Below are positions 7,763 through 54,390 of a stretch of DNA of 64,000 nt, one piece after another (positions within the stretch are counted from its first letter, which is position 1; every line of letters begins with the position of its first letter). The notes under the pieces were generated by a model. That model worked only from the letters and a program-made list of their open reading frames with translations. It had not been told where the DNA came from and did no database searches. The stretch comes from Lytechinus pictus (taxonomy: Eukaryota): positions 19,532,001-19,596,000 of the forward strand of contig NC_087245.1 of assembly GCF_037042905.1 (NCBI RefSeq), in the 5' to 3' direction. A program made the position numbers and the translations under genes.

Positions 7763-8108
7763 CTGCCAAAGAAAAGAAAAGAACTATCGAATTTTAACTA
7801 CAGTACTTGAGCACATACAGTATAATTCAAAAGTGGTTTACTATCATTTTAATATCATGTTCATTAAAATCTTAATCATTCTACTTTGAATCTTTCTATA
7901 CATTTGACAGGGAAAATGTAAAAATAATAATTGAAAGTAATAATAATCATCACAAATGAAAGAATGTTAGCTATTGCTGCTTTTGTGGAGAATATTTATT
8001 ATACAAGGGGAGAAATATGTTATCTTTTAAGAATTTATTTACACATTATTATTTACAAGAGAGGTAGATTTTAAATTAAATGAATAAAGGGGAACATAAA
8101 AAACTCAC

Positions 8109-13004: not shown

Positions 13005-13478
13005 TGTTTGAAAGTTTGCATGGTGGCAATCACTGATGTGGTTTACAGTACACCATGTGGAGTGTTATAGAAACAGTGGATAGAAGAAGAAAAGAAATGG
13101 ATAGGCGAGAAAGTGGAAATTTGAGAGTAGAGTAATCTTTCTTGAATGTAGTCCTGAACTTATCTCCTGAAGACGGACAGTTAACCTGTCCGAAACGTCG
13201 AGTCTCTGACAGTCAACCTGCCCGAAACGTCGAGTCTCTCTACTGCTTCTACTCATCATCTCTACTCGCCGACTCAAGCCAGCATCTCCTCATCCATCCT
13301 ACTATTCAAGCTGTTTTCAACTCATCAATCTCTTCTGGTTTACAGTCCTTTTCAGGACTACATTCAAGAAAGATTACTCTACTCTCAAATTTCCACTTTC
13401 TCGCCTATCCATTTCTTTTCTTCTTCTATCCACTGTTTCTATAACACTCCACATGGTGTACCGTAAACCACATCAGCG
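13005..13478 (+). mobile_element. Penelope-like retroelement fragment with inverted terminal segments and 14-bp TSD
   Basis: 130-bp inverted repeat 13029-13158 / 13351-13480 with 2 mismatches seen. Direct repeat atcatcacttttgt at 12991-13004 and 13479-13492. Hammerhead motif inside. Confidence 0.7.
13164..13202 (+). ncRNA. Minimal type I hammerhead ribozyme motif
   Basis: CTC-CTGAAGA-C-GGACAG(ttaac)CTGTCC-GAAAC-GTC-GAG: core boxes, 6-bp stem II, palindromic ACGT, GUC triplet, 3-bp stem I. Confidence 0.6.
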
Positions 13479-27190: not shown

Positions 27191-29361
27191 CTGCAAGTGA
27201 AAATAGGGTAGCCACAAAAGTGTTAAATGCGAAACTATGGGAGGGACTAATAATAAAAAAAAAACAAGCGTGACTGTCATAGCTAACCAAAACATGAGAG
27301 GAGTTATCACTCATATGTGAGAAATAGCGCATCCTTTTTAGCACAGTGTAATGCAATTCATTTTAATGTGAACATAAAGATAATTCATGTAATATTCATG
27401 TACATTGATACTACTTGAAAGTTTTATATTGACAGTTGAGATAGTTCATTCGATTCTAAAACCTAAAGTTCCCACAGCTTATTCATAAAAGTATCAAGTA
27501 CAATCATCAGAATTAGTAGTTCAATAGCATTTTTCTACATTAACTTGCAACTAACTTATAAAGAAGAATGGCAAAAGTATTATTTAGTGTTATAATCATC
27601 CAGTTATATTTCCATGGCATTAGGTTTTAAGAACAAATGCTATCGAGTTCATCAACATTCTCTGTTGAAATATTAATATCAACCATTATTCCAAGGCTTT
27701 ATTATTCATAGAGAGAAAAAGGCTCAAAGAGAAATCAAGAAAGTTTGTGAAAGAAGTTTTTGAAATAAACAGCTGTAAGATGGTTTCATGTGTGATAAGG
27801 ACGACACCTTCTTTTTCGTTAGGCACTGTGAAGTGGATTTCATCATGAATGAATAGATATTGAATGCTTTCTGCATGACTACTGATGTAAATGTAAGGAC
27901 CCATGTCAGATGCAGTGAATTGATGAAAAATAATGTAAACATAGTTTTGCATTCATATTACTATGAATTTCTTATGCTTGATAACATATTAATACTCAAA
28001 CGAAAGGATTTTTGAAATGTATGGTTGATATTTGATGACACATGGCACAACTATGAGATGATAGTCATTTGATCATGTATATTAAAATTCAAAACTACTT
28101 GCCACTTAAAAGGAAGATTTACTTAACAAGAATTTCTGTTTCTTAAATTTCTCAAAGAAAAAGTAAAATCCGACAGTATAAAGTTTAAATAAAAAATAGG
28201 TTAATATAAAAATATACAGTTACATAGACACTTTATCCCAAATAAAAGTAGACAAAGAAGAACCCTTAAAATATACCACCAATGATGTGAGCATTACATG
28301 AAATTCAAATAAATTCCATAAAATAACTTTATCAGAAATGTTTAATTTAATTTCTGATTACAATGTAATATTTAAAAAAAAATCGGTTTGAGAAAATCAC
28401 TTTGAAATTGACATATATTTTGTTTAATTCTTTATTTTTCTGTAATTTTAATAATCAACTTTTTCCTTTCAAAGAAGCCAAATAATTTCTTTCCAATTAG
28501 TTTGCAAGGTCATATTTTGAAATCAAGAAAAAAATTATTTATAAATTGGCAAAAAATGAAAATATATGAAATGAAATCATGAACATGATTCGTAAAACAG
28601 TTATCGTAAAACAGTAAACAGAAATAATGACACGCTGATGGTATGACTGTACAATAATATGACAGACCAAAAGACTCAATTTCTGTCTCTCAAAAAAAAT
28701 AAAAACAATGGAAACTCCTTTCTGTCTGCTCTGACTTCTTTAGAAGATACAAATTAACAAAACATGCAAGCACAATTTGACAACACCCAATATTTTCAGC
28801 AAAAATGACAGCAAAATCAGCATTAAAATGCAAACATGTCTGAACACTGCCATATCAAATGCACAACAGCAAAAGTATGCCATAGCATCTCAATTCATCT
28901 TAGTAGGGTGTACTTTTTTTCTTTTTGAAGCCTACGCTATGAAGCATAGATAGTCTGTTGCATCTTTGAAACAGATTTTCTACTGCAAAGGTGTCCCTTT
29001 CTAGTATTTTATTTGAAAAAGAGCAGAATTATTAAATAAGACAAATTAATTTAGAATTTTCAAAAAGAAACACATCAGAGAGTATAGATAGCAAGACACA
29101 CACAGAACACAGAACTAAACATCAAAAAGAGAATCACAAATTTAAGAATACAATGTGTGGTTATTCTACATCATGGAGGAAAAAGACATGGTTATGGAAT
29201 GCAATATGTAAGCTAGATGTGAGTGTTCTGCAATATAGTTATGATCCAGCATTGTTGTCAAATGGCAGAGTTTGAGCTAAAGAGACTTGGAGAGAAGATG
29301 AAGCAAGTGCGAATAGTTTTCAGAGGTTTTTAATGGTAGAGAAATGCATGTAGATTTGTAC

Positions 29362-32300
29362 CTTCCACTGTCAACATTGCTGTAGAAGCAGCAACACCAA
29401 GATCATTCTTGACTTGGACTTCAATCATACTGTTGTCATCAGGAGTAGTGTTCGGCACCATCAAGGAACTGCAATCATCGCTCACCAGGATCCCATATTC
29501 ATCAGAATCCTCCAGTTCGTACCCATCTTGGTACCATGTCACTTCGAATGGTGCGATACCTGTGAAGTCTATGTGGAAGGTGATGGTCTCGCCTTGCTTA
29601 CACTTGATGTCTTGGAGACGCTGCTTGATGATTGGAGACCCGGTTGGATTCAAAGCCCTCATCTGCGTCATGGATATCCTTTTCGCTAACACCCTATTCT
29701 CGTTTACTCCCTCTACCTCCTCTTCTCCACCATCCTCAGTTGAACTCTCAGTCAGTTCTTTCCTTTGAGCCATGGTTTCAGTTTCAATCGCTGGCTTTAT
29801 GGGATCATATTGTGAGGACCGTGCCTTGGCAAAAATAACTGAATTCTTTCCAAAGGGTGACCCGACAAGTCTTGGAAAAGTCTCTTCTTCATCATCATCA
29901 AAGAAGCTTTTCCACTGAGGTTTCTGTTCTTCTTCATTGGGTTTGAAGTCTACGGTGATATCAAAACCAACTGCATCATCATCCTCAACAGAATGATCTA
30001 GCTGTGGCTGAGGCAATGTTTCGACTGGCAGAATACTTTCTTCCTTGACTTCTTCTTCAATACCTTCTCTTGGTGCAATTTTTAGAACAACTTCAAAACT
30101 GGGATCCTCTGAAGGACTTGCAACTGTTCTTTGTGGTATTTTTTCCTGATTGTCTTGATCCTGATGCAGCATCATCCTCGCCTTGGATACCTGTGTTTCC
30201 TCATCACTACTAGTTGATGAGGAGGATGAAAGAGATGATGAAGATGAAGATGTCCTCTGTAATTTCCGTTCCTCCTTGGTACCTTGGAGATTTGATTTCA
30301 ACTTCCTGGACATTAATTTGGTGTCTAGAGCCTCATGCTCATATTCCGATGATGAACTTGAGGGAGTCCTTTCTTTCTGATTTCCAGCTGAGAGCTGTGT
30401 GTTTATACTAATATCCAGTGGGGTATAGTGTTGGTTGTCTCTCCTTAATGGTGAAACTTTTGTAACATCTCCATCAGACGAGTGAGGAGATGAAGAACTC
30501 CTTGATGATGACAGATGATCAGCTGATGAATTGTCTTCTCTCACGTATGACGGTTCTTCTTTTGATTGCCGACTTTGAAACACAATGGCTGAAGAGTACG
30601 AATGTCGATCAGATTCTGGCTCTGATTCTCCTGAATCAGATGATGAGGAATGAGATGATGATGATGATGAAGTGGGAGAAGAGCGTTTGTCAGATGGATT
30701 CCGATGAAAGGGGTCTCTTGATATTGGCAATGACCTGTCAAATTTATCATCTTGAATGGGAGGTTTCTCAAGCATGACTTCTGCAATGTATGGCTCAACC
30801 TTATTTCCCTCTGCTCCTTTAGTAACAGGTTCTTCATTTGATTCTTCAGATTCTGATGAAAAACTAGATGATGAGTTAGAAGATTTCCTTTTTTCATGTT
30901 GTTGTATTTGTGTCAAGGTTCCGGGTTGTACTGGTAAAGCCCTGTCAAATTTATCATCTTGAATGGGAGGTTTCTCAAGCATGACTTCTGCAATGTATGG
31001 CTCAACCTTATCTCCCTCTGCTCCTTTAGTAACGGGTTCTTTATATGATTCTTCAGAATCTGATGAAAAACTAGATGATGAGTTAGAAGATTTCCTTTGT
31101 TTATGCTGTATTTGTGTCAAGGTTCCGGGTTGTACTGGTAAAGCCCTGTCAAATTTATCATCTTGAATGGGAGGTTTCTCAAGCATGACTTCTGCAATGT
31201 ATGGCTCAAACTTATCTCCCTCTGCTCCTTTAGTAACGGGTTCTTTATATGATTCTTCAGAATCTGATGAAAAACTAGATGATGAGTTAGAAGATTTCCT
31301 TTGTTTATGTTGTATTTGTGTCAAGGTTCCGGGTTGTACTGGTAAAGCCCTGTCAAATTGATCATCCTGAATTGGAGGTTTCTCCAGCATCACTTCAACG
31401 ATAAATGGCTCACTCTTGTTCCAATTCGGAACTTTGGTAGTTAGATCCTCTAGTTCTTCAGAATCTGATGAAGACCTAGAAGAGGATGAGGAAGAACATG
31501 AAGGTTCATCTCCACCGTGTTGCCCTTGTGCAAGGGAGCTACTTCCAAAAGGAAGTACTTTGTCAACTTTATCATCCTTGATTGGTGACTTCTCAAGCAT
31601 ATCTTCCACAGCAAATGGTTGCTCATTCTTTTTTCTGCCAGGTGCATAGTCTTTATGGATGGGCTGTACATTATCTTCTGAATCTGAGGAAGATGAAGAT
31701 GAAGTATGACTGGAGAGGTCTTTGAATGTGTCTGAGTCTTCTGATTTGCAAGACCTGCCTGATACCGGTAATGCTCTATCAAATGTATCAATTTCAATTG
31801 GCGGTTTCTCTAGCATGAGTTGAACGATGTATGGTTTACTACTCCCTACTTTGTCAGTTCCATCATCCAGAGTGATGGGCACTGAAAATGAAGATGCAAA
31901 GCGGTCACTGGTTTGAGAGTCATCAGCCTCTTGAGGAGGAATCCCTTTTAAGTTAGTAGAAAGATCTGAATTGACTGGTGTACTTCTTCCGTCTCCTTCT
32001 GAACCATCTTCATCATCGGAAGATGAAGCAGTTTTGATGTCACTGTCATTTTCAAAGATATCTCTTTGTTTCGGACGTGAAAATACAGCCTGCTCTCTGA
32101 ATGGTATGACCTCCTCACGTGAAATGGGGATCAGATAATCCCCATCATGTTGGCTGTAAAGATCTGGCTGATTCTGTTGTCTTGGTTGGATTTCCTCTTC
32201 AAGTGCTTCAATCTCAAGAGCTGGAAGGTAGTCCTCTGAGGACACCGGTGTTGATGTCTCAGAGTCACTATATATTCCTCCATTCTTTGTTTGTCTGTAA

Positions 32301-33042
32301 ACTGGTTGAAAGTACATAGCGCTCCTTGAGGATTTCTGTGGTTCTTCCTGAGCCTGCGTGATATCTGAAATGCTTGACGTGGGCATGGTGTAGTCATCAG
32401 TGGTACCATCTGAAGGCATGAGTTCCAGGCTGTCTGGGAAGGACAGTTCTTCGTAATCACCATCTGAGAGAACTTCTGCAGTGATATTTTCCTCAACAGA
32501 AAGCTTACTCTCTCGCCCACCGAGCTTCTGGTAGAGATAAGTAACACTGCTCTCCTCACTGTGGACAGATTCTGATGTGACACTTTCATCAACAGGAACC
32601 TTGTTGTCGGCGTCTGTGAGCATATCAAGATTCATAGGGGCACTTCTTTCAGGCGAAAGAACTTCAGCTTCTACTTGTTCATCTTCTGGAAGTTTTATGC
32701 CATCCAATCCCTTTCTCTCAACAACTACAGGTGTAATATCTTCATCGTTGGCAAGTGTTCTTTCTGCAAAAGAGGGATATCTCTTGGCACTATCATCCAA
32801 GTTCATGTCAGTTTTCTTAGATGGAGTGCTTCTAAGACTGTCCCTGAAGGGCAGTCTGTTTGTATTAGTCTCTTTTGCCATATCAAAAGAAGATGACTTT
32901 GGGACAGGTTTAAGCTTCACTGCAAGTGCAGGGCCAGCACTGACCCTCCTTGGGGTGCCTACTTGATTTCTGGAAAGGAGGAATGGGGCTGCATGCTGGG
33001 AACGTCGCCTGAATACTTCCTCTAATTCATTAGGTTTCTCAT
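29362..33042 (-). CDS. TTN: 3681-nt exon: Ser/acidic disordered region with 68-aa repeats, ending in Ig10
   Basis: aaacag|AT GAG...GAA G|gtacaa, phase 1-1, 1227 codons; overlaps ORF 29330..32920. Confidence 0.9.
30731..31400 (-). repeat. Coding tandem repeat, 204/207-bp unit (68-69 aa), about 3 near-identical copies with degenerate copies to about 31830
   Basis: EVMLEKPPIQDDKFDRALPVQPGTLTQIQHKQRKSSNSSSSFSSDSEE recurs with spacings of 207, 204 and 204 bp. Confidence 0.92.
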
Positions 33043-33423
33043 CTGTTTAAATCAATGGCATGCAATTCAATAATTTATTGATTAGTGTAATGAAATTATT
33101 CATTATTTTTTAAAATAGATTTTTAAATATTAATCAAATATGTTTCAGTAAAATTCAATGGAAAAACAAAATTAATCATGTTCTCTTATTTGGGGTACTG
33201 ACTATTAAATTCATGCAAAGTTATAGGTACATGTACATAATATGTGTTCAGTGCCTTGCACTGTAGATTGAAACATGCTGTTGCATTCATTGATTTAATC
33301 ACACATTGTTCATCAAAATCTTTAATATTTCTTCAATAAAAAATAAATGATTTTAGTGACCACTTTTGGGAGTATGTGAAGAGTATGAGGTCTTCAGAAA
33401 ATAAAAAGACAAGACAATCTTAC

Positions 33424-34873: not shown

Positions 34874-35404
34874 CTACACGATAAATTATAATGTAAGATG
34901 AAATGTAATTAGTAAGTTGTACTCTTTGATATCAGTTGTACATACTGTATAGTTAACCAATACACCTAGCATCAAGTAAACCAAAGAAGTCCATACCATG
35001 CATTGGTACATGGAGGCTGGGAAATATTTTAAAAAAGAATGACATTTAATCTATGAAAATGTGCATAGAGTTCTTAACATAGAAATACATGACGTAGAAC
35101 AGCACATGAACAAATGCTGTTTTCAGATGGTGTTAATTGAGGAATTAATTTGAAACTTTCTATAAAGCAATTCATTTTGTACACAAGAACAGGCAAACCA
35201 TATCTTTATCGTATCATGAAAGGCTTAAAATGTCAAGCTGAACTTTAAAAAACTTATCATTGACCACCAAAATATTTTGAGAGCTCTCCATAATATAGGA
35301 CACCATCGACTGGCTCTAAGATATCCAGTAACTGCATAGACTTTGTACTGGGAACACCCGATTTCAGTAACCTAAAATGTACATGAAAATTGTGAGGAAC
35401 TTAC

Positions 35405-35492
35405 GCTGAGAGGTATTCATCAAACTTGATAGTTTTCTCAATCCCTCTCATTTCTTCAGGTAGTTGAGTGTCCAGAATAAGTGACTGCTCAG
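35405..35492 (-). CDS. TTN: Exon, kettin/titin-type inter-Ig linker
   Basis: ttacag|CT GAG...TCA GC|gtaagt; EQSLILDTQLPEEMRGIEK. Confidence 0.88.
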
Positions 35493-35628
35493 CTGTAAAT
35501 GTAATAAACAGAAAGTGAGATAATGAAGAGATTTTAGATAGTAAGACAGCCTAACAAAACTAATGCAGTTAACAAAAAGATTTGCTCTTTGCACCCTCTA
35601 TATTTGAAATAATCCTGAATCACACCTG

Positions 35629-39788: not shown

Positions 39789-39849
39789 CTCTGTGTTGGG
39801 CGCCTTTGAAAGATGGGAGCTGGCTCATTATCCTTAATAAATTTGTCAT
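39789..39849 (-). CDS. TTN: 61-nt linker exon (DKFIKDNEPAPIFQRRPTQ)
   Basis: tttctgtctcag|AT GAC...CAG AG|gtaaga; needed to convert phase 1 to phase 2 between the flanking exons. Confidence 0.85.
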
Positions 39850-40213
39850 CTGAGACAGAAAGAGAAAATACAACAAAAGGGAATTAATTTTACCTATACA
39901 CGTCACCTTAATGTGAATATCACTTCATATAATAAACATGAATGTAAACTATTGCAGCATACACTGTATAATGTATACACTCAGACCTTTACTATGATTC
40001 TATTAAAACTGAAGATTTAAATCCTAGGTTTATGCGATTGATTGATTCTTGTTCCCTTTCATTTTACAACTACAAAATGTAAAATCTAAAAGTAATGTTA
40101 ATGGACAATTTCAATCAGTGTGAATAAAACATTTATCAAAAACAAAACCAGTAAAGATCACATCAGTACTACATTTTCATTTCATATTCAAGATGAAAGT
40201 GTGTATCACTTAC

Positions 40214-40347
40214 ATATCACTTGGACTCTACTTCTACACGAGACGCGTCCAGCCGAGTTGTGTGCTGTGCAGGTGTACCAGGCGCTGTCATGACGAGTGA
40301 CTCTCTCAATAAACAGCTGGCACACTCCATCCTCACTCATTTGCATT
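40214..40347 (-). CDS. TTN: Exon, second half of Ig7
   Basis: tcctag|A ATG...ATA T|gtaagt; DGVCQLFIERVTRHDSAWYTCTAHNSAG. Confidence 0.9.
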
Positions 40348-40818
40348 CTAGGAAAGCAGAAAAGATAAAATTGCAATCAACAATAAAAAAAAAATCAAAG
40401 GAAAAAAATATAAGAAATAAAATAAAAAGGGGGAGATCAAGTTAAGCCATGGATAATTATGAGAAGCAGAATGAGAAATATTTCCAAGCTGTTGTTTGAT
40501 CTACCAGTTCTCCAAAGGCCCCTCCCTCTTTATTTGAAGCCTTGATGGGGATCTTACCACAGTTTGTCAAAAATTTCTTAAGGGATTTTTTTGGGGGGTG
40601 ACTTGTCAGATTTTTTGAGGATCTTTAAGTCCATTTTCTAGATACAAGAAGTCAAGTAAACATAAGAACATTTTTACATTCTTATGCTAGCTTTCATCAG
40701 AATGCTACTTTTAAGAACATTACAAGCACTACCAGATTATCCTGTTCAGTTTATGGGAAAAACGGTTTCTTTTTTTATGGCCCTTGGGAGAATTATTGTA
40801 AAAAGAATCAATTCATAC

Positions 40819-40984
40819 CTGTACCCGCCGACATTGGGCATGATGTGCTTCTGATCCCGTTGCCATGAGACATGAGGGGTGGGGCAACCGGTGACCTTAC
40901 AGGTCAAGGTCACTGCTTCATTTTCTCGCACCGTTGCATTTTCAATACGATCAATGAAGGAGGGTGCCACTAATTGCCTCTTGG
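40819..40984 (-). CDS. TTN: Exon, first half of Ig7
   Basis: atgcag|CC AAG...TAC AG|gtatga; APSFIDRIEN...CKVTGCPTPHVSW. Confidence 0.9.
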
Positions 40985-41761
40985 CTGCATTTAAGAAATT
41001 GAAAACAAATGGCATGTTAAATCACAAGAAATACGTACATATGTAGTAAACTAACATGCAAACGATAATTTTTCTCCTCAAAATAGAAAAAAATGAGCAT
41101 TACAAATTTGTTTATCAAATTATCAGATAATTCAATAACAAAACTATAATTCATATTTTTCAATTTGATACTGTTTCCCCAAAGAATAATCAAAAGCTAC
41201 ATGCATTCTGAAACTGTTAATTGTCAGATCTTTTGATAGTGCAACTTAAGTTCATGTTTCAGTGATGCATCATCTCAGCGTGGAACATATATTTAAACCT
41301 TACAAAATGGTTTGCATTTTAAAATGAACATTTATGACCTAATCATTCAGGAACCATACAAAGTTTACATCATATAGATCTGTTAATTAAAATAGAGAAT
41401 TTAAGACTTTGTTATGCAAATCAATGAAAATAAAGACTTCAAAGTAAAAAGTCAGTGAGTGGCGTGGTAAAAAACTTTCGTGCAGCGGAATAGTCACTGA
41501 AAATATTGTGGGGGGGGGGTTGAATCAACCTCCCTCCCCCCGGAGGTTTTAGAGTTAAGAATTAAAATTAGACGATTCAGGGGTCACCACAGTGGAATAA
41601 TAATCACAAGTGCAATGTATATATGCAGTATCTTCCAATGAGCCTTTCTTGCATTGATGTACATAACCCTTCTAATTTTCAACCCACTGTTCAAAATAAA
41701 CTTTCACAAGCACATGTTAACCTATAACTATTTTTCAGAGAGAACAGAAGATCATACTTAC

Positions 41762-41894
41762 GATCTACATTGAGTTTGACATGGAATTTGGCCTCTCCAG
41801 CCCTGTTGCTGGCAATACAGGTGTACATACCGCTATCCTGAGGGCGGGCGTGGCTGATCATTAGGGCATGCTCACCACCCTCGTTAACAATTAC
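41762..41894 (-). CDS. TTN: Exon, second half of Ig6
   Basis: ttccag|GTA ATT...GAT C|gtaagt; VIVNEGGEHALMI...DSGMYTCIASNRAGE. Confidence 0.9.
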
Positions 41895-42246
41895 CTGGAA
41901 CAATTTAAGGAATAAGCATAGAGTGAACATAATAAGAATAAATCAATTCCAAATACTGGGGTGACTTTGAATATATTTTAAAATGATTTACCTTTCCTTT
42001 GTTATTGCTTTTCTAAAATATTTTATATGTTATGAACGTAATACGATCCCCCCGTAAAACATACCGAAATATTTTCTAAAAATCCAACAGCAAAATGAAT
42101 GTTATTTTCAAAACTGTCCAAAGTCATGCCAGTTTACAGTAGGAAAATTCAACCAATCAACAACCAAGTTCTTGAACTTCCATAGATTTAAACAGAGACC
42201 AAAATGTTCCAACATGCAATGGGTTAAAATGACAACAGCCACTCAC

Positions 42247-42460
42247 CCTATGGTTGGCATCTGGGTAGACAGGCATCTCATTCCTGTACCAGACAAGATC
42301 TGGAGGTGGTCGACCTCTGACCCTGCAGTTGAACCTGGCTAGTTTGCCTTCTTTCACTTCCAGGTCACTGGGAATGACCTTGAATGTAGGTTTGTAGTGC
42401 TTCTCTCGGACCTCACCGGGTTGCCTTTCACGATCAGGAAGGTGGTACTCTTCAGTCTCC
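42247..42460 (-). CDS. TTN: Exon, first half of Ig6
   Basis: tttcag|G GAG...AGG|gtgagt; HYKPTFKVIPSDLEVKEGKLARFNCRVRGRPPPDLVWY. Confidence 0.9.
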
Positions 42461-43203
42461 CTGAAATGGAAAAATGATAATGATAAATAAATATGTAACA
42501 AAAATCTTTGAGATATTTGTGAGGTTACCCAAGACTTTATTGAAGAATAAAATTTGTTAAACTTCCAAAGTTTTCTTGCTATGTTGACAGTGAATTTTCA
42601 TAAATGTTAGTTAGATTAAGCAAAAATAGTAATATGAACTAAAATGTGTCATCAGTAAATATAGTAATCAACATTTCCATATTTTAATTTCATCTAATCA
42701 TGAATTATTTAGAAACAAGTTCACTTTTCCCCAACTCCAGATAAGCATTAAGTCATGTGCAACTTCAGCTTTACGAATCATCTATATCATATTTTCCAAT
42801 ACAGTTTTAAATACAATGCTGAAGTAACTTTCTATTGACAGTTAAAAGTCAGTCAAATATTGTCTTAAGAATACTTTATTTTTCATTCCATGTTTCAAAG
42901 AGGGTCTTTCCCTGAATGACTAGATAACAATTGTGATACCACCATAACTAAAATTGTAATATATGGATCAATTGGATATTTGAATATGGTACATGCACAG
43001 TTTAAAATATTTCTTAGATATGGTAGAACACTTTTTGGCTCAATTTGATATTCATTATCTCTTTGGTGTAAAAATGCCTGATTACTATAAACTTTGTAGA
43101 GGGACCTGTAGAAAATAAGTGAACAGATTTTCATTAACAGGTATACATGTGTTGTTTATCCCAGACTTCAGCCATGGACAAATCTTAAGTGGCATATACT
43201 CAC

Positions 43204-43442
43204 ATGCTGACACGAGCACCAAGAGCACCTTTCATATGGCTGACCTCATCCGATAAATGCCTATCGACCTTGATGCGACCGGTGTTGACTGCCTTGCCAA
43301 ACTGGTTCCAGGCGAAGACAGTGTAAGCACCCTTGTCTTCAGGAAGGATAGGGTCGATACGGAATTGGGAGAAGCCTTCCATGTAGGAGACGTCGTAGCG
43401 GATTGACTTTGGAACAGGATAGCCATCCTTGAACCACTGGAT
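43204..43442 (-). CDS. TTN: Exon, second half of Ig5
   Basis: atacag|ATC CAG TGG...AGC AT|gtgagt; ILPEDKGAYTVFAWN. Confidence 0.9.
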
Positions 43443-43812
43443 CTGTATTTTTGAGGAGAGATCAGGATTTGATACATAATGTGTGCATGATGTCATAAAC
43501 CAAGATATATAAAGCTGGAAATTGATGGAGGCACCCTTTTCCTTCAGGAAAAATAAATGAATTTTATTTAAGGAACATAACTATGCACTACATTCAAGAA
43601 ATCATATAATAATGCAACTTCAATAACTTGACATGAAAAATATTATTGCTTTATGGACAACTGATTAGATTTTATTTCAAACAGTTTTAATCTTCATTTG
43701 TTCAGTATTTTTTAAGTAGGGTAAAATGCATCTCAGAAACAGCCAACTCATGATCTTTTTCTCAAAAATATTCATTGTTTATCAAAAAAATGAATGAGGG
43801 ATAATGTCTTAC

Positions 43813-44043
43813 AGATGGTTTTGGTCTGCCTTCTACACGACAGCTAAGAGCAATCTTGCCTCCCTCAGAGACTCGGAAGTTCTTGAGCTCCTTGAGGAAG
43901 CGGGGAGCCCTCTGTTGACTGGCTTCGGAGGTCTCAAGTTCGGACTCAAGCTCAGTCTCCGTCTCGGCTTCCATTGATTCGCTCTCTTGGGGCTGTTTCT
44001 GGTTCAGTAGGCTGGCTTCAAACGCGGCCACATCAAAGGGACC
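43813..44043 (-). CDS. TTN: Exon, acidic linker and first half of Ig5
   Basis: ccccag|GGT CCC...TCT|gtaaga, phase 0-0; APRFLKELKNFRVSEGGKIALSCRVEGRPKPS. Confidence 0.9.
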
Positions 44044-46664
44044 CTGGGGGTTAATGATGATAATATTAAGTTCAGCTTTCATTCATTATCACTTTAAAAT
44101 ATCTTTCGGATATGAGAGATGATAATACAACATGATATGAAATTAGAGCTGTTGGACAAAAATTACCTTTGTTTCATTTGCTACCGTTTCAATGAAAGAG
44201 TTTTGAAAAACTTGCATTTGGCTCAAATATCAAGAAAAATTCCATCATGAAATTCTTCCAAAAGTGTAAATTTCCATCATAGGCAAAACTTATTATCTTC
44301 GAGAAAACAAAACCATTACTTATACACACAAAATGGAGAACCTATTTCTAGTACAGTAAATGAGCTCCACAAAAAGAATGCAGTGATACTGATCTACTAA
44401 AGAAATGTGTACAACTCACTTTGAAATATATAAACATACAATCAACACACAGGGTACTACACAAAATACAATACACAATAAAACATGGTAAAAAATAATA
44501 AAATATACATCTGAGATATGAAAAAATATACTCTAGTAAACAACAAAATGTGATATCATACAGGCCCACAGTTGGTCAAAGTTTTTGGTTATAAATGGTT
44601 TGGTGCACATGGAATTTGGATGTGAATGGGGAAGATATTACACTAGCCCTTATAAATTTGCCAGCTGATTTCTTGAATGACTTCAGGCAAACCTCATTTA
44701 CGGACTCTAAAAAAAAAACAGATGACCTGAACTCCATTTCAGAAAAAGCTTTAATCAAATGCAACTTTAATTTCAACAAATCAAAAACTTGTATTACAGG
44801 TTTGATTGTTTTTGTTGCTTTTAATCACAACTCTTTCTGTAACAAACCAACTGGAAACAGAAATGCACCCATTGTTAAATACTTATAAAAATAATAATCC
44901 ATTTTAGTAACAATGATACCGGGTTACATTTAAGCTTAAATATGTTTACTCAGTAGGACATTTAGAGATATTTCCCAGTATTCTTTCAAATAAATTAAAT
45001 AATATGTAATATATCAAATCCAGATAATTTATATTTCTAAAAAAATACGGTGGGTTTTTATTTCAAATTAGTTCTTATTCTTGATGTTTAAGCGCATCCT
45101 CTGGAAAAGGCTTTCACATTTCATAGCTCAGCTATGAATACTTGTATTCCATGTACATGAAGCCTAACTTGCTAAAGAACATAAACCCAATCAAACATTT
45201 TTTTTCCTTTTAATTCATGGCTAGAAGAATGAAAACATCACAACCTACAAAAGAACAGATTTTCCTATGCTAACATCACACAGAAAACATGCATAAAATT
45301 ATCTCACATGCAATACAATAAGAAATTCAACTAATGCAGATGTACGATAAACCTTTAATTTTTATCTGCCATTTTCTGTAGAATTATTGAAAATATCAAA
45401 GGCAAATTCATAAAACTGACAAAAAGCATTTAACCTGCAGGTCTAAAAGGGTATAACAGGCAAACATTAAAAGAACACAAACTATAGAAATGATACAGAT
45501 TTAATCAAATGGCCATAGAAGTTGCTCATCTTATATACAACAATATACATGCAGCCAAAGAGAAACCTTCCTATTCTACATGAAACATACATACATTTGT
45601 TTTATGAAAAGTGAGATTTGCACCTTTACAACAACAGTAATATTTCATAACATAAAACATGCCTTTTACACAGAATACTTTCAAAACAGAAATTTAAGTA
45701 TACATAAGATTCTAATTCTATCTAACAAATAAGTCAACATATACAATACAAACAAAAAAGTATACACTGCTTTTCAGGCGAGGACATCCAAATCTAAAAG
45801 CATATAAAACCATGCAACGTACATTCAACACAAGAAGATTTCTACATGCAAAGACCTCACTGCATAGCTGGTAGCACTGATTTCAAAATGGCATTTGAGT
45901 TTTGTCTTGCTCAATACCAGTGTCCACATAATGTGAAATAATTGTTGTAATTCTCATTCAAGAGAGTTGGCAAAAATGAACCAATATTTTTCCCTCTGTT
46001 AAAAGAACATCTTTACTGCTATAGAGATAATCTCTTCATTAAAAACCTACTTGTCATTGTAAAGATAAATTCATGTGGATAAAGAGTGTGTCAAAATTTC
46101 ATTTGATGAATAGAAACATCTTTTAAGATTGTGAATGTCGGGTGTATACCGTAATTGCAATGGAGAGACTTGTATGGAAGATTGATACATATTATCAATA
46201 CATCTTATCAGCCAAGTACTTTTATTAAATTCAAATATTGAAATTAATGAACTGAACCAAAACAGAATCATCATCTTTTCTCTAACATTTTAAAGAGACT
46301 TAAATATGATTGCTAGGCGTAACTGTTAAACTGAGTAAATGGTCAGAAAATGTCACTGTAGGTGACGGACATAAAGGGGTGATCAGTATATCTCAAATCC
46401 ATATCTGAATTCCTATCAACAGGTCTGAATCTACTAGTTGCAAATTGAGATATGTACCCATGTCACAGGGAGGCATAAAAAGGTAAATATTTTTGTTTCC
46501 ATCAGTTCTGTGTAGTGTGGTCACATAAAAGACAAATGTTAAATAGTATTATCCACATAAGTTGAAATACAGACTGGACAAATAAACAAGCAAGAACGAC
46601 TTTGACAGAAATGCCACTTAAACATCAGCTCTACCCCTTTATGCAGCTCGAATCCTCTACACAC

Positions 46665-46757
46665 CGCATCTGTAGCATCGTAGTCTTGGGATGACTTCCT
46701 CTCCCTGAACTTTATTTCTTTCTCCAGACGAGATTCGAAGGAAGATGCCTTGGAGTC
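46665..46757 (-). CDS. TTN: Candidate cassette exon C (DSKASSFESRLEKEIKFRERKSSQDYDATDA)
   Basis: aacag|GAC...GCG|gtgtgt, 93 nt, phase 0-0; same motif; weaker acceptor and uncertain donor. Confidence 0.6.
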
Positions 46758-47255
46758 CTGTTTTGTGTTCAATTTTAGCCATTTGGAGAATACAGCAATT
46801 ATACGTAATATCTTTCAGTCATACAAATTACTCGTGCTGTTGGAATTCTTGACAAATTCATACTACTACAGTGTAGTTCAAAATCTACAATTGCTTTTAC
46901 CAGACAGTATGCAATGAATAATGAAATAATACTTTTCACTAGTGAAATGGTCACAATTAGTCATAATAATACTAGATAGTCAAACACTATTTTTAAAACC
47001 TTGCTATAATATAATGTATCTGGTTTCTCCTTCTGTTTGCCAAAGAGGTATTAACAAAATCAGTTAATGATCGATGTCTATTAATTATCTCCAACAAAAA
47101 CTATAATCAATACTTCCTATAGTTGGCATCCAATCAGATGATAATAGTCAATTACTTCAAACAATAACAAACTGAGCTTCAAATATTAACCCTATATAAT
47201 TCAAAATACTACATCAACGAAACATTCCATTCATGAACTGAAACAAGAATTGTAC

Positions 47256-47351
47256 CTGGTCGGAAAATGGTCCGCCACGCGGGCCCGACTCCATTTCGCG
47301 GATCTCCACTTCTCTCAATAGACGTCTCTCAAAAGGTGACAACTTGCTTGT
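47256..47351 (-). CDS. TTN: Candidate cassette exon B (TSKLSPFERRLLREVEIREMESGPRGGPFSDQ)
   Basis: cttttcag|ACA...CAG|gtacaa, 96 nt, phase 0-0; same motif. Confidence 0.75.
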
Positions 47352-49007
47352 CTGAAAAGATGGAGCAGCCCATTTTGGTATACTCAAATCGGTTCCATTA
47401 AACATGCAGCTCACTCAGTTTGTTTATTTAAGTATTCAACACACAGCATGCTCTTTAGTGTTTTAAAAGAAATCTATAGCAATTTGACAAATGAAAATGC
47501 TTGACATGACAGCTAATGTTTACCAATCTCTCTATACATGTACGTCTGGCATCAGCTTTCATGAGAAATTTCATACGTAGGGTGTTTACCCATTAACGGA
47601 TTGATTACTGAAACCAGATGCTACATAATACTACATAATGCAGTATTTGATCGATTAATGTGTTATATTAACTAAATAGAGTAGAACTGCATTCTACAAC
47701 CAACCTATTTACGCAATTTTTTTGAGAAGTTTTTTTCTTGCCTCATATAGTAAAGTTCATAACTCGATTCAGGCAAAAATGTTGCTTGTGAGTCAATTTG
47801 ATGGTATGGCATAATTGGCTGAGCCCCAAATATGCAAGTATGTGACAGGAATTTCCTTTGCTTTTTACACAGTCTGGTGTCAGCAAATTGTAATCTATTT
47901 CCCATGAAAGCTCAAGAAAAACCGACAAAGATGTGAATTAAGAAAAAAGCTAATGCAGATTTATTGACAAACATGTTGATGAAGAAAACATATCAAATGA
48001 AGCATGACTGCATCTCAAAATACTCATGAAATCACAATGCATATGAACATCTTATCCCTCTTTTTTCTACCAGCATTTGTGAATTTTGTCACATAAGTCA
48101 AATACAATTTGATTTTCAAGTAATGTCATTATAACTTATGACCATCTGGAGCTTATAAATAAACTGTAAATATGCAGATATGTTCATATTTGAGTGGAAT
48201 GGCGAAATTACTCATCTTTGATCATAACATATGAGCAGAGAGTGATAACCTTAGTGACGAACAGCATGCAAAGATGCAAAATCACTCATACTTGAAAAAA
48301 AAGTCCCATTAATTTTAATGAAACATTTTATACTTCATATATGAATCTGCATCAATGCAAAAACATTTATTCATACCAAATATCATAACAAAGTCACTTG
48401 GGAGTACAATATATATATTTATGAGATCTTCCTGTATCTGGAAAATAGATATATTTATGAATAATATGATGGATATCTATAGAAGTACAAATGAATGAAA
48501 CATGGAAAACATTCAACCAGTGTTATAAAAGCTATGAAAAACAAACTTAGAATTTTTACAAAAATATAATTGTGCAAGTTAAGAACACACAGATCCACAA
48601 CACTTAACCTAGTTGAAAGAATGAAATTCTATTTTCAAATTTACAGCTTTCGCTGGTAAACTATTAAGCATCTACTTTTTACGAAATACATTTGATCAAG
48701 TCACTCTGAAATCAAGGTCAAATGACAAAAATTCACAATTCACAAAATGTGTGAAAAGGAAAATACCATCAAATAATCACGGTTAATTATCCCGATGTCA
48801 AATAAGCTATTATATAGTGTATCATTTTTAGGTGCATAGGAAATAATATAATATCGTGTGAATAAAATAGCAGAATACAAAAATTAGATTTGAAATGACA
48901 TGGTCACACAAGGTTATACACTGCATGTGGAATAAAACACTATTCTACTCATGAACATGAAAAGGGGGTAACACAGTGATGAAGGATGAGGGACGTGAGG
49001 GGGGTAC

Positions 49008-49124
49008 CTTCCACTCCATGGGGGCATGGTAGATGCTGGTACGACCGATGCGTTCTCGATACTCAACCTCCTGCTGAAGACGCTGTTGAAACGGCGAGAG
49101 GCTTGGTCTTCTCTGAGGAGCATC
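49008..49124 (-). CDS. TTN: Candidate cassette exon A (DAPQRRPSLSPFQQRLQQEVEYRERIGRTSIYHAPMEWK)
   Basis: catag|GAT...AAG|gtaccc, 117 nt, phase 0-0; GC/CpG-rich island in AT-rich intron; SxFxxRLxxEVEYR motif. Confidence 0.75.
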
Positions 49125-50063
49125 CTATGATTTACATTGCAACCATGCCAAGGTGTACATGCCAATGAGCACAAGCAAGCATGAATTTTGAAATTTAGAG
49201 GGGAACAGAGGTCAAAGGTCAGCTATGAGGTGACGGGGTCCACTCAACAAGCCATGATTTCGTTTGGATTTAGACTGACAGAATATCATGCTCTGGATAC
49301 TATTTCAAGGCAGCATTTTATAACAATTATTGCACTGTTTATTTTTTTTTTGGTCTATAAATACCTGAGAAATTTATGAAGAACTAAAGTAAGCCATATG
49401 TTTATATAACTTCATCAATCATGAAAATGCGACAATCAATACTTTATTTCTCATTCTCAGAAAATTTATTTTGAATCACAAGAAAGCATCTACTTTTATT
49501 TCCTTCTAAAACATTATCAGATTGACACTTTTCTAAAACACAATGAAAAATTAACTAGAGAAAAGGATGCAGCATATTCCACAAATTTCATGATGCATGC
49601 AGGCGACATTTTTTTCTATAATCATTACTGTCGTAAATAACAAAATATATAAATACAGTCCTTTCTATTGTTCTGTAAACATTTCATTTCTAAAAAAAAA
49701 TCACTTGTACTCAAACAAATTACTCATTAAAAAAAAATTCAAATAAGAAAAATAAGCAATTCTTAAGGTATGGGCATGACCCTTACAATTGGAAAAAAAA
49801 AGAAAATTCAATTCACTCTTTCATCTCCCAGAGCTAACCAGAAAATAAACATGGACTATAGAGTTTTGAAGTCATTTCTAACAAGGAACAGTTGATTAAT
49901 AGAAATATTTCCAGCACTTATACATGGATATGCGCTTTTGAACAATTGGCATAGAACTTGTTATAATCCAATTTCAATAATGTAAATTTCAAATTCATGA
50001 TCTCTCAGGAATTTTATTTTTGAGCTCCTAATCTTCCAGGAATGCCCAAAGGACAGTACTCAC

Positions 50064-50221
50064 CTGATCAGCATCTTGGTAGGTAGCTTGGCTTGGTGTG
50101 ATCTTGCCACCTTTCTCATGGACCTTCGTCTCAAGTTCTTTGTTCACCACATCCTTCTTCTTCTTAGCTTTCTCAATGGCCTTCTGTTCCTCATACTCCT
50201 GGGCCCAGTGGTCATATTGAG
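50064..50221 (-). CDS. TTN: Exon, charged helical linker
   Basis: ttgtag|CT CAA TAT...GAT CAG|gtgagt, phase 1-0; QYDHWAQEYEEQKAIEKAKKKK. Confidence 0.85.
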
Positions 50222-50743
50222 CTACAAAGAAAATGAAATCATTATTCCCATATTACAGGGATTCACAGAAAACAGATTAATCAAATTGCCTTATAAAAGT
50301 TGAAAAAATGTGGAGAATTATACTTTTTTTCTAAAATGTTGATAGAGTGGCAATGTATTATACTGGTCCCAATAAAACTTACTACGGACTTACATTGTAA
50401 CTTTCATGAAAACCTTAATTTAAATTGGTAATTGATTGTTGTTATGCATGGTAGTTGGTAGTCGCAATTGATGGCAGAGTTGCCGTTATTATTAAGTATT
50501 GAGCAAAAGGGACTTGACCATGTATTGATTGCTTCTAATTCTATATGTGGAGTTTCCAGTTTTGATTTGTGGTTCAATCACATTGACGTGATACATGATA
50601 CAATCAAAGCAGCTACCCGAGAATTAAATGAATCAATACGCATGTATTAGGAAAGTAATGTGAACGGGGCCAGATTTTCACCCTCTACAGAAGGCCACAT
50701 CTAGTATTACTTTTACAACTGAAACTTAATCCCTGGGTCTTAC

Positions 50744-50886
50744 CTGGGAGAAGAAGAGGAGCAGTGAGGTAGACCTGACCAGCTTTGCTCTTGGCTATAC
50801 AGGTGTACTCTCCTTTGTCTTCAGGTAACATCATGGTAATGTCAAGAGTGGCTGATCCTGTCTTTTCATCATATTTTATCACAAAC
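50744..50886 (-). CDS. TTN: Exon, second half of Ig4
   Basis: gcctag|G TTT...CCA G|gtaaga; RFVIKYDEKTGSATLDITMMLPEDKGEYTC. Confidence 0.9.
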
Positions 50887-51450
50887 CTAGGCAAAAAGAA
50901 TAAAATTAAGAAATATTAAGACCTGGCATTAGGAGACTACCAAAATTCTGCGCTGCATGTTTTTTTAAATTCTTTTTGCAGGAGTCCCACTATAAAGGTG
51001 CAATATGAATATACCATGACGTTCGAGGATCTGGCTAAAACTATTCACATAAAAGAAACATAAAAAATACCCTTCTCCCGAGTGCCAATGACTGTGAATG
51101 GTTTTAGCTTGTTCCAAGAATGAGTCATTGTATTTCTGTATATCCTGTATCATTCCCCCATCACATCAAATAAAAAGTAATAAAGAAAAAAAGTTCACAA
51201 CTTATGAAAATGTATTTCCAATTTTTCGGATATGCTGATAGCTAGCTTGGCAGGCAGCCCGGCTATAGGAGCACCAGTGGGATGCCACAGGCAGTCTTGG
51301 GTGCAGTAAATTGACTATGCGTGACATCAGCAAGGAAAATGACCTATTTCATTGCAAACATTTTTCCTAGTAAAAATATTGTTTTCTCCTTGTGTACACT
51401 CTCAAAACCACAACCTTAAGCAAGGTATATATAAATGAGCAAATGTATAC

Positions 51451-51688
51451 CTGTAGCCAGAATCGACTGGTTGCCCCTGTCTCAACCAGGTGATCTTTGG
51501 GGCTGGGTTGCCCTTGACAGTGCAGGCAAAGCGACATCTCCCTCCCTCAGAGTAGCGAGCAGGAAGGAGGGGTTTGGAGAACTCTGGTGGTCCAATGGGG
51601 ACTTTCTCTGCAGGTGCGGTGTCATTGACTGCATTAACCTGTGCTGGTGGTTGTTGAGCTTGTTGAGCAGATGGAGGTGGGGTTCCGG
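51451..51688 (-). CDS. TTN: Exon, linker and first half of Ig4
   Basis: ttgtag|CC GGA...TAC AG|gtatac, phase 1-2; FACTVKGNPAPKITW. Confidence 0.88.
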
Positions 51689-52208
51689 CTACAAAGACAT
51701 GCAGAATATCTTATGTGAGATATATAAACCAACATGCATGACAAGATTTAACACAGAGAAGAGAATAAGATTGCAATAATATTGTAAATATTTGTAAACA
51801 AAAAAAACAAAACAATAAGATTTCTCTCGCCAAGGTGTATATTACATATCAGTAATTAGACTCAATATCAAATTCCTAGGTTGGAAGAGACCAATTAGAA
51901 ACTTTTGTGCAAGGATTAAGTCTTGATTAAGTCACAAAGCAACGGGTACAATCTATGAGTAAGGCTGGTATCTTATTTTGTGATCTTTGAAGAGAGGAAA
52001 GTAACCTTGCTGTGAGTAAAATGATTGAAAATGTATTTTTTCTTAGTGATATGGAATCTTGTGCCTCAGTAAGTATGTAATAATGTCTTGAATTTATAAA
52101 TGGATGGGGAAAAACAACAATTAGGTGACTAATAGATGACCAATTAGATGAAATTCTCTATCATTTTCAGAATCAAGTGAACAGATAAACACTAAAATAA
52201 AGACTTAC

Positions 52209-52467
52209 GTAAAACTCTGACATTACAGGAGGTAGATTTGGTACCCTTGCTGTTTGTTGCAGCACATGCGTACTGTCCGGCATCGTCGTAGAAGATTTCC
52301 AGGATTGTGAGCGTGCTCACGCCATTCTGGTATTTGACCTCAAAGTCCGGGGAAGGGGTCAGAAGGGCGCCCTCTCTGTACCACTTGACGTCTGGTTGAG
52401 GTTGGCCCTTCACAGCACACTCCAGTTTGACGGGTTTACCCTCTTTGACAGTGACATCTGAGAGAGT
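52209..52467 (-). CDS. TTN: Exon, Ig3
   Basis: ctacag|ACT CTC...TTA C|gtaagt; VKWYREGALLTPSPDF...DDAGQYACAATN. Confidence 0.92.
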
Positions 52468-53143
52468 CTGTAGAATAAGGTGATCACGATTGAAATCAAA
52501 TGAGCCGTATGTTTCAAAACAGACTTGGGGCTTGTTACAGAAAGAGTTGCCATCAATGGCAATTTGACTTTCAACCAATCAAAAGCATTTGGAACTTAGC
52601 TTCATATTTTAGTTGCATTCACATGCAACTCGTTCTGCATTACCCTGCAGGACACTGTTCTGTTAACCTTACCATCAATGAAAGGTAAGATGTTACGATC
52701 ATTAGCTCCTGAAACAGTGCCATTTGCTAGATCAGATTTATCATGTTATCAGAATTTGTAATTGACAACTGGATTTGGGACTAACACTTCTTAACAAATA
52801 TGTGTAGTTTTATTCAGAGTGTATTTGCTTTGTCCATTTGTGATGAATTATTATTAAAAAATGTCCTTTGACAGAAGGCATTATTCGTAAAATGGTGTAG
52901 ATCAAATAAGATAATAAATATTTGCAAGAATTTGTATTTGCATTTTGGGCAATCGTAATGTGGACTATTGAATTCAAAGATCAAACAAAGATATTTTTTG
53001 TTCAATTATTCATCTCGGAACACTGCTTAATTATGAATCAGACCCAGTCACATATTCATAGACATATGACACAAGTCATAGTTCCCGATTTCACAGGACA
53101 CCTTCTTTGCTAGCCATACATTATTTGGTAAACAATGTCTTAC

Positions 53144-53866: not shown

Positions 53867-54390
53867 CTAAAATAAAAATATGAAACAATGACCACAATAA
53901 AAGTGATGACATACAAAATTGGAAAGAACAGTAAGAACAGTTAAATGGATTAAAGAGAGGTCTATATTCATATACTCTACTACTTTTCATAGCAATATTG
54001 GATGTCTGAAGAGTGCACATATCCACCATCCATGGAGTTTAGGGAGCTTGTACATTGCCCTGGCTTTGCTAGACTACCCACTACAGAGTTCATAGCATCC
54101 TCAGCATTTTTCCAAACAATTCACGGTACACCAAGGTTTCAAGTGGTAACTTCAGACTTAGGTTTTGCCAAAGGATATTAGTGAAGCAGTGGTTTCAAAC
54201 CCCGCCTCTGTCGATAAGTAAATGGACTTATCCATGGATCCATAATACATATTTAATTTTTTTCAATAGAATATTTTACATGATAGTATAATAATAGAAA
54301 TAATAATAATCATATAGAGGAGTACCAAATCAGTACAATTACAGTAGATCATAATGTGGAGGAGCTAGCTGGCAACTTAGAAGATCTTAC

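What the first reader, a model, noticed from the sequence alone, without database searches (positions are those of the whole stretch)
46665..49124. Three paralogous cassette exons, each encoding the titin/palladin SxFExRLxxE(I/V)xxR motif
Seen: three small phase 0-0 exons sit in the 6-kb intron between Ig4 and Ig5. They encode SPFQQRLQQEVEYRER (49008-49124), SPFERRLLREVEIREM (47256-47351) and SSFESRLEKEIKFRER (46665-46757). A degenerate echo (AAFEASLL) starts the next exon. Copy A is not in the frame shown by the ORF track. Established (from recall): a single SSFEERLIKEIEYR-like motif precedes the equivalent Ig in vertebrate titin, and similar motifs occur in palladin/myopalladin. Inference: exon triplication gives a splice-tunable number or choice of a helical binding motif, comparable to the alternatively spliced Z-repeats that this gene lacks.
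Basis: partly seen in the sequence, partly recalled or inferred. Interest (0 to 1): 0.75.

Follow-up and report, generated by a model that had tools for sequence, protein, structure and literature searches.

The report
Optional tripled helix in titin-like gene
A giant muscle-protein gene of an invertebrate carries three small optional exons that each encode a short conserved helix found once in vertebrate myopalladin, so splicing can change how many copies of this helix, whose partner is unknown, the protein carries.

Summary
Exons A, B and C (117, 96, 93 nt; AG/GT; phase 0-0) lie between Ig4 and Ig5 of a titin/connectin-like gene. Spliced reads or contigs show U→A in 3 runs of the species that matches the window, and U→B plus B→C (no A) in 1 run of a species about 3% diverged. 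Skipping of all three is inferred, not displayed. A crinoid protein model has three copies at the same place; unnamed relatives have two or none. All 9 vertebrate myopalladins retrieved have exactly one copy before Ig3, and by position it aligns with the degenerate constitutive 'echo' in exon D. So there are four copies, and the full motif is optional here. The motif (S-x-F-E/Q-x-R-L-x-x-E-Φ-x-x-R) is predicted to be a lone helix in a disordered linker. It lacks the 1-4-5-8 α-actinin pattern (0 of 19 copies), so it resembles Z-repeats in splicing logic only. Titin and palladin copies are recalled, not retrieved. The partner is unknown; the best lead is the palladin-type Ig triplet. Ten literature searches found no description of the motif, and three look-ups in the scan's notes found no earlier report.

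The parts
50064..50221 (-). Exon U, upstream exon after Ig4; common donor for A and B
   Evidence: AG/GT; joints to A and to B
49008..49124 (-). Cassette exon A, 39 aa, motif copy 1; an RRPS (PKA-like consensus, recalled) precedes the motif
   Evidence: U→A joint: 2 reads in X20, 4 reads in X21, contig depth 6.54 in X1; best match to crinoid copy 1
47256..47351 (-). Cassette exon B, 32 aa, motif copy 2
   Evidence: U→B and B→C joints in X5 at contig depth 16.8; orthologous pieces P0003, P0006; AlphaFold2 helix 6-22, pLDDT about 90
46665..46757 (-). Cassette exon C, 31 aa, motif copy 3; the copy that scores best against myopalladin
   Evidence: B→C joint in X5; ortholog P0005; tblastn of lizard myopalladin hits it unguided, 48% over 27 aa, E 0.28; scores 46-49 against myopalladin versus 40-43 for A and B
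43813..44043 (-). Constitutive exon D: degenerate half-motif ('echo'), acidic linker, first half of Ig5
   Evidence: covered in all 4 runs; the echo aligns with the myopalladin motif, F/E/L invariant in 12 of 12 rows
47352..47387 (-). Conserved intron flank upstream of B
   Evidence: read-through translation 9 of 12 identical to P0003, 0 of 20,000 shuffles reach it; not conserved in P0006 (2 of 21)
46758..46814 (-). Conserved intron flank upstream of C
   Evidence: 8 of 19 identical to P0005, 0 of 20,000 shuffles
46545..46664 (-). Conserved ~120-nt intron flank downstream of C: a probable splicing-regulatory element, or less likely an extended or terminal form of C
   Evidence: 18 of 40 identical without indels to P0005, 0 of 20,000 shuffles; the flanks of constitutive exon Ig6a are not conserved in P0001 or P0008
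50744..51688 (-). Ig4 (exons 51451-51688 and 50744-50886)
   Evidence: joints, splice ends, tree
40214..43442 (-). Rest of Ig5, Ig6 and Ig7 (exons 43204-43442, 42247-42460, 41762-41894, 40819-40984, 40214-40347): the module matching myopalladin Ig3-Ig4-Ig5
   Evidence: joints; Ig6 groups with MYPN Ig4 and myotilin Ig1 (98/96), Ig7 with MYPN Ig5 (91/78, unstarred), Ig5 scores best against MYPN Ig3

Best explanation
The motif S-x-F-(E/Q)-x-R-L-x-x-E-(I/V)-x-x-R is an N-capped, three-to-four-turn helical binding motif in the disordered linker before the palladin-type Ig triplet. An ancestral single copy at the start of exon D was duplicated long ago into three in-frame cassette exons, and the constitutive copy kept only its N-terminal half. 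Splicing now sets how many full helices the protein carries, and so its avidity for one conserved cytoskeletal partner at the anchoring end of the molecule. SHOWN: the exons, three splice joints, B+C co-inclusion, homology to the myopalladin motif, three copies in a crinoid model. PREDICTED: the helix. INFERRED: the skip-all form, the order of evolutionary events, a binding function and the partner. My odds for the partner: the palladin-type Ig triplet of a neighbouring molecule about 0.3; F-actin about 0.2; α-actinin outside the EF3-4 groove about 0.2; another partner (filamin, LIM or PDZ protein) about 0.3.
For: Joints U→A (X20, X21, X1), U→B and B→C (X5). In X1 the flanking contigs stop at the U donor and the D acceptor at depth 14.6 and 14.5, while A has 6.5, which fits a second path that skips A, B and C (arithmetic only). 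Related proteins carry 3 copies (P0004, crinoid), 2 (P0009, P0106) or 0 (P0010, echo kept). 9 of 9 myopalladins carry exactly one copy, at 18.6-25.9 bits against at most 0.3 for the best non-motif hit among 146 stored proteins, using a profile built without vertebrate rows. R12, which was not part of the search pattern, is kept in 19 of 19 copies, although third codon positions among A, B and C match at only 4-7 of 16 and their flanks are unrelated. AlphaFold2 gives a helix for B and isolated helices for crinoid copies 2, 3 and the echo in a low-confidence linker. Intron flanks of B and C are conserved across species, unlike those of a constitutive exon. Lead for the partner: titin Z4-Z5 (residues 942-1173) binds the Ig3-5 region of MYPN and the matching region of PALLD, Kd 2.8-7.2 µM (PMC8547954, passages); that this titin fragment includes the motif is recalled.
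Against: No isoform series was seen within one sample or species beyond A-only against an inferred skip. A versus B+C is confounded with species, and tissues are unknown. Read counts are very low (2 and 4). The three-copy crinoid protein is a gene model that may never be spliced that way. Crinoid copy 1 is not helical in the full-length model. The titin-MYPN binding in PMC8547954 could be purely Ig-Ig. No function for the motif was found in the papers searched.
Confidence: 0.55

Rival explanations
1. Specificity switch rather than a counter: A and the pair B+C are alternative, tissue- or stage-specific modules with different partners or regulation (for example phosphorylation of the RRPS/SP N-cap in A).
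For: A without B or C in 3 runs of organism A; B+C without A in 1 run of organism B; no A→B joint displayed. Crinoid copy 1 scores best with A (53 vs 42, 42) and copy 3 best with C (46 vs 41, 39). Only A has RRPS.
Against: The pattern is confounded with species. Crinoid copy 2 ties between A and B (59/59). The core residues are the same in all copies, which argues for one partner surface. No clear pairing element for mutually exclusive splicing was found.
Confidence: 0.25
2. A true functional replacement for titin Z-repeats: each helix binds α-actinin EF3-4, and copy number tunes α-actinin cross-linking.
For: Same gene region and same logic as the differentially spliced Z-repeats (PMC2799012, PMC12241362, passages). 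No Z-repeat family hit in P0004, P0009, P0010 or the window's Ig2-Ig3 frames. [quoted passage not shown]
Against: 0 of 19 copies has the 1-4-5-8 hydrophobic pattern that defines EF3-4 ligands (PMC8062120, PMC5479843, passages). The myopalladins checked and shark myotilin-like carry a separate P-x-AFLS-x-VLP stretch, about 80 residues upstream in MYPN, which I take to be the described α-actinin site. Z-repeats lie between Z2 and Z3; these exons lie after Ig4.
Confidence: 0.1
3. The exons only tune linker length or elasticity, and the motif is a relic.
For: The linker is predicted disordered; titin routinely tunes elasticity by splicing (PMC12198301, passages).
Against: F, R, L, E and R are kept from these exons to myopalladin while the rest of each exon diverges.
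Confidence: 0.05

Closest known systems
Vertebrate myopalladin (MYPN) pre-Ig3 segment; palladin/myopalladin/myotilin family
   Same: Same motif in the same position before the acidic linker and Ig3 (9 of 9 retrieved); Ig5-Ig7 here match Ig3-Ig5; the Ig2 of relatives groups with MYPN Ig1 (99/95).
   Different: MYPN has one copy in every record retrieved and ends after Ig5. Here there are three optional copies plus a half copy, and the transcript continues past Ig7 into further Ig domains.
Titin Z-repeats (Zr1-Zr7)
   Same: Short, tandem, differentially spliced helical motifs near the N-terminus of a titin-like protein.
   Different: Different sequence (no 1-4-5-8 pattern), different place (after Ig4, not between Z2 and Z3), 31-39 aa exons rather than 45-residue modules, partner unknown.
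Vertebrate titin Z4-Z5 linker
   Different: Not retrieved or aligned here; recalled as a single constitutive copy.
Anneissia japonica 'myopalladin-like, partial' XP_033111498.1 (P0004)
   Same: Three tandem copies plus the echo between the same Ig domains, in the same order.
   Different: An automatic gene model; its splicing was not examined and the motif is not annotated in Pfam.

Membership tests
Alternatively spliced cassette exons | Canonical splice sites with the frame preserved | tested here: met
   AG/GT, phase 0-0, 8 of 8 combinations open
Alternatively spliced cassette exons | Inclusion junctions in RNA | tested here: met
   U→A, U→B and B→C joints
Alternatively spliced cassette exons | Inclusion and skipping within one species | tested here: inconclusive
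   U→A skips nothing; B and C are uncovered where D is covered in organism A; U→B skips A only in organism B; U→D is inferred from contig breaks and depths
Mutually exclusive exon cluster | Never two exons in one transcript | tested here: not met
   B→C joint; A against B/C stays open
Myopalladin pre-Ig3 motif | Sequence match to the vertebrate motif | tested here: met
   a profile without vertebrate rows finds it in 9 of 9 myopalladins
Myopalladin pre-Ig3 motif | Position before the Ig3-equivalent domain | tested here: met
   the exact positional match is the echo in exon D
Titin and palladin copies of the motif | Alignment to TTN and PALLD | not tested
   no TTN or PALLD sequence covering the motif came back; recalled only
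Titin Z-repeat / α-actinin EF3-4 ligand | 1-4-5-8 hydrophobic pattern | tested here: not met
   0 of 19 copies
Titin Z-repeat / α-actinin EF3-4 ligand | Located between Ig Z2 and Z3 | tested here: not met
   lies between Ig4 and Ig5
Titin Z-repeat / α-actinin EF3-4 ligand | Binding to α-actinin EF hands | not testable with these tools
   no α-actinin sequence was in hand
Titin/connectin gene | Long multi-Ig protein with kettin-like Ig and long E/K/P-rich repeats | tested here: met
   Ig exons along the whole window, 7.8-kb and 3.7-kb open frames, collinear with P0009; the label 'kettin-like' is recalled
Titin/connectin gene | FN3 super-repeats and kinase domain | not testable with these tools
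Palladin/myopalladin/myotilin family (separate short gene) | Protein ends shortly after the Ig triplet | tested here: not met
   an X1 contig runs 961 nt beyond the Ig7 exon into exon 39849-39789, which ends in a donor site; P0009 continues collinearly. A short isoform is not excluded: the crinoid model ends 20 aa after Ig7

The most novel reading that the evidence does not exclude
The helix is an undescribed docking motif shared by titin, palladin and myopalladin that binds the palladin-type Ig triplet, and it explains the published titin Z4-Z5 / MYPN / PALLD interaction. In this invertebrate, where motif and triplet lie in one titin-like gene, it would link neighbouring molecules, and splicing 0-3 copies would dial lateral cross-linking. 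The vertebrate palladin family would be a fixed short offshoot of this N-terminal titin module.
Probability: 0.2. Interest if true: 0.75.

Novelty: new variant of a known kind. Interest (0 to 1): 0.48.

Why it matters
An 18-residue helix conserved between this invertebrate gene and myopalladin, a human cardiomyopathy gene (and, from recall, titin and palladin), has no Pfam family, no solved structure and no description in the papers searched. A lineage that tripled it and made it optional marks it as an autonomous, dosage-sensitive unit, and supplies natural one- and two-copy forms (and probably a zero-copy form). That makes 'what binds this segment' directly testable with short peptides and could help interpret missense variants just upstream of MYPN Ig3. 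The splicing logic itself (tandem motif exons in titin) is a known kind.

Tried and rejected
Complex prediction of exon B with crinoid Ig5-Ig7: no answer (score 0.00 in two runs, alignments not used, controls not folded); it is no evidence either way. The run search listed no holder on record as RNA; the RNA nature of X1 and X5 rests on their intron-skipping joints. Pfam gave no family for A, B or C and nothing over the MYPN motif. PDB sequence searches: 0 hits with A1, only Borealin at E 1.7-1.8 with A4 (taken as chance), and none of the 29 hits to lizard MYPN has its best stretch over the motif. The ESM Atlas gave no usable hit. TGCATG (RBFOX-type element, recalled) is enriched in the cassette introns (8 vs 3.0 expected) but equally in the other introns (9 vs 2.9), so it is not specific. 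No stable fold around C (z +1.25); inverted repeats are many and AT-rich (124 pairs), so no docking/selector element is claimed. A 1-4-5-8-like stretch in the intronic frame 53983-54120 has no good splice sites and no Pfam hit; rejected as a Z-repeat. Shark myotilin-like YEEKMARRLLG as a diverged paralog scored only 2-12 against A-C; not supported. The first Ig extraction caught too few domains and was redone. No fold search was run on a single helix. Three papers were not held. The scan's notes gave nothing relevant.

Full report
OBSERVATION. The window holds a multi-Ig titin/connectin-like gene on the minus strand. Between exon U (50064-50221) and exon D (43813-44043) lie three small exons at exactly the stated coordinates: A 49008-49124, B 47256-47351, C 46665-46757. 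Each has AG/GT ends and a length divisible by three. All 8 include/skip combinations give one stop-free frame from Ig3 to beyond Ig7. The motif S.F[EQ].RL..E[IV]..R occurs three times in the six frames, only here, and never in 200 shuffled windows.

SPLICING. I laid 4 of the 22 listed runs on 39800-52700; only about 6% of each raw-read run was read. An X1 contig (organism A) has 0 differences over six exon pieces (1,119 nt), so organism A matches the window. X5 (organism B) differs at 28 of 885 nt in one contig. U→A is seen in X20 (2 reads), X21 (4 reads) and X1 (contig depth 6.54); bins over B and C are empty or nearly so in these runs. In X5, U→B and B→C are seen at depth 16.8 and the A bin is empty. 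The B→C joint alone shows that B and C can sit in one RNA. The side lengths (93 + 97 nt) fit the 190 letters that precede exon U in X5 record 4. In X1 the contigs flanking the cassette region end at the U donor and D acceptor (depths 14.6, 14.5) while A has 6.5; leftover depth at both ends fits a U→D skip of about 8-10. This is arithmetic, not a displayed joint: 15 joints were shown and 4 hidden, and no joint into D from U, A or C was displayed. Species and tissue are confounded, and counts are small.

RELATIVES. A profile of A, B and C over 1.84 billion representative proteins gave 4 hits. One is the crinoid Anneissia japonica 'myopalladin-like, partial' model, with three tandem copies (577, 611, 647) followed by the same echo. 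The other three are unnamed read-through pieces that match B (P0003, P0006) and C (P0005). P0003 and P0005 each list one ENA contig of 9,529 bases, probably the same one. Their read-through flanks match the window's intron flanks (upstream of B 9 of 12; upstream of C 8 of 19; downstream of C 18 of 40; 0 of 20,000 shuffles each). The flank downstream of B is weak (3 of 13), P0006's upstream flank is not conserved (2 of 21), and the flanks of constitutive exon Ig6a are not conserved in P0001 or P0008. Two unnamed proteins on 5-kb contigs, which look transcript-derived, carry two copies (P0009; likewise P0106) or none (P0010) and keep the echo. Crinoid copy 1 scores best with A, copy 3 with C, and copy 2 ties A and B. 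Third codon positions among A, B and C are near saturation and their flanks are unrelated. The triplication is therefore old and probably shared with crinoids. The window's organism was not identified: 'echinoderm-like' rests on this one named relative (41-62% identity in the correctly mapped Ig exons).

VERTEBRATE MOTIF. A search with the Ig5-Ig6 region of P0010 returned 9 myopalladins (8 fish, 1 lizard) and 3 shark myotilin-like proteins among 29 hits. An 18-column profile from 11 non-vertebrate copies found exactly one copy in 9 of 9 myopalladins (18.6-25.9 bits), none in the 3 myotilin-like proteins, and nothing else above 0.3 bits in 146 stored proteins. Over 19 copies, F1, R4, L5 and E8 (fixed by the pattern) and R12 (not fixed) are invariant. 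In a whole-protein alignment the myopalladin motif falls on the constitutive echo at the start of exon D, with F, E and L invariant in 12 of 12 rows. An Ig tree and score matrix pair Ig6 with MYPN Ig4 (98/96) and Ig7 with MYPN Ig5 (91/78, unstarred). Ig5 scores best against MYPN Ig3, but the tree leaves it unresolved, and the crinoid and window Ig7 score slightly higher against Ig3 than Ig5. I infer four copies in all: one ancestral copy that kept its N-terminal half and three optional full duplicates. No titin or palladin sequence covering the motif was retrieved, so their copies are recalled only.

STRUCTURE. AlphaFold2 gives exon B one helix (residues 6-22, pLDDT about 90; 6-row alignment). 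In the full crinoid model, copies 2 and 3 and the echo are isolated helices in a linker mostly below pLDDT 50; copy 1 is not helical. F1-L5-(I/V)9 form one face and R4-E8-R12 an adjacent stripe, with an S-x N-cap (inference from spacing). This is the anatomy of a helical motif that folds on a partner. No Pfam family or solved structure covers it.

MECHANISM. Most likely (0.55), splicing sets the number of copies of a helical binding motif, and so avidity for one partner. The main rival (0.25) is a switch between A and B+C. The literal Z-repeat reading is unlikely (0.1). EF3-4 ligands use a 1-4-5-8 pattern (PMC8062120, PMC5479843, passages), which 0 of 19 copies has, and the two myopalladins checked carry a separate candidate stretch about 80 residues upstream. 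The best partner lead is that titin Z4-Z5 (942-1173) binds MYPN 935-1320 and the matching PALLD region at low micromolar Kd (PMC8547954, passages). That fragment spans the linker in which I recall the titin copy, but Ig-Ig binding would explain the data equally well. F-actin is a second candidate, since Ig3 of MYPN and PALLD binds actin and flanking regions strengthen actin binding by myotilin (10.1101/2025.09.18.677238 and PMC8062120, passages).

LITERATURE AND NOVELTY. Ten full-text searches found no paper that describes the motif or these exons; the letter search returned 3 unrelated papers. The library lacks most subscription journals and sequences shown in figures. I read search-term passages only, not whole texts or supplements, of PMC5479843, PMC8062120 (also its abstract), PMC8547954, PMC10069870, PMC12198301, PMC12241362, PMC2169455, PMC2799012 and 10.1101/2025.09.18.677238. 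Alignments in their figures or supplements could show the motif. Three papers were not held. The scan's earlier notes held nothing on this.

VERDICT. A real, expressed and conserved feature. It is a new variant of a known kind (tandem motif exons tuned by splicing in titin), built on a motif that seems not to have been characterised. Interest 0.48. It would be about 0.75 if the helix proves to be the titin-myopalladin-palladin docking element (probability about 0.2).

Noticed in passing
window 60147-40214; P0004, P0009, P0122, P0126, P0128: The N-terminal Ig array maps onto myopalladin: the Ig2 of relatives groups with MYPN Ig1 (99/95), Ig3 scores best against MYPN Ig2, and Ig5-7 match Ig3-5. 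This suggests the palladin family is a shortened copy of the titin N-terminus.
   Followed up: partly
window 43204-43250 and 42460; P0004 826-841: A conserved predicted helix (HMKG..A.RV.ME-like) in the Ig5-Ig6 linker is shared by the window, P0004, P0009 and P0010: a second short motif with no known role.
   Followed up: no
window 39789-39849 and 37031-36095; P0010: A 61-nt exon carries the transcript past Ig7 into a kettin-like Ig (label recalled). P0010 has four such repeats in a row, P0009 has one, and the window has one clear copy plus a weak piece at 35383-35493. The crinoid model instead ends 20 aa after Ig7.
   Followed up: partly
P0121, P0124, P0127, P0129 versus P0122, P0123, P0126, P0128: Some fish myopalladins have a 26-aa insertion directly before the motif, which suggests an alternative exon and an exon boundary at the same place in vertebrates.
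   Followed up: no
window 46594-46635 with 45082-45115 and 45870-45896: The conserved flank downstream of C is partly complementary (71-78%) to two sites in the C-D intron; this may be chance among 124 inverted pairs.
   Followed up: no
window 41433-41490, 44753-44840, 47874-47906, 51308-51430, 52534-52580: Short intronic stretches that draw many partly matching RNA reads with loose ends: fragments of dispersed, transcribed repeats.
   Followed up: no
window 3-7793 and 29330-33046: Two very long open frames (2,597 and 1,238 aa) with internal tandem repeats (about 201-nt units near 1-2,800; serine-rich repeats near 30,500-31,800), typical of elastic titin segments.
   Followed up: no
window 49106-49095 (exon A); P0009 552-555: An R-R/K-x-S (PKA-like consensus, recalled) stretch sits just before the motif in exon A and in P0009 copy 2; phosphorylation could switch the helix N-cap.
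   Followed up: no
window 13065-13289: A minus-strand frame near 13,065-13,290 and repeated flanking text on the plus strand look like a local duplication or an extra small exon.
   Followed up: no
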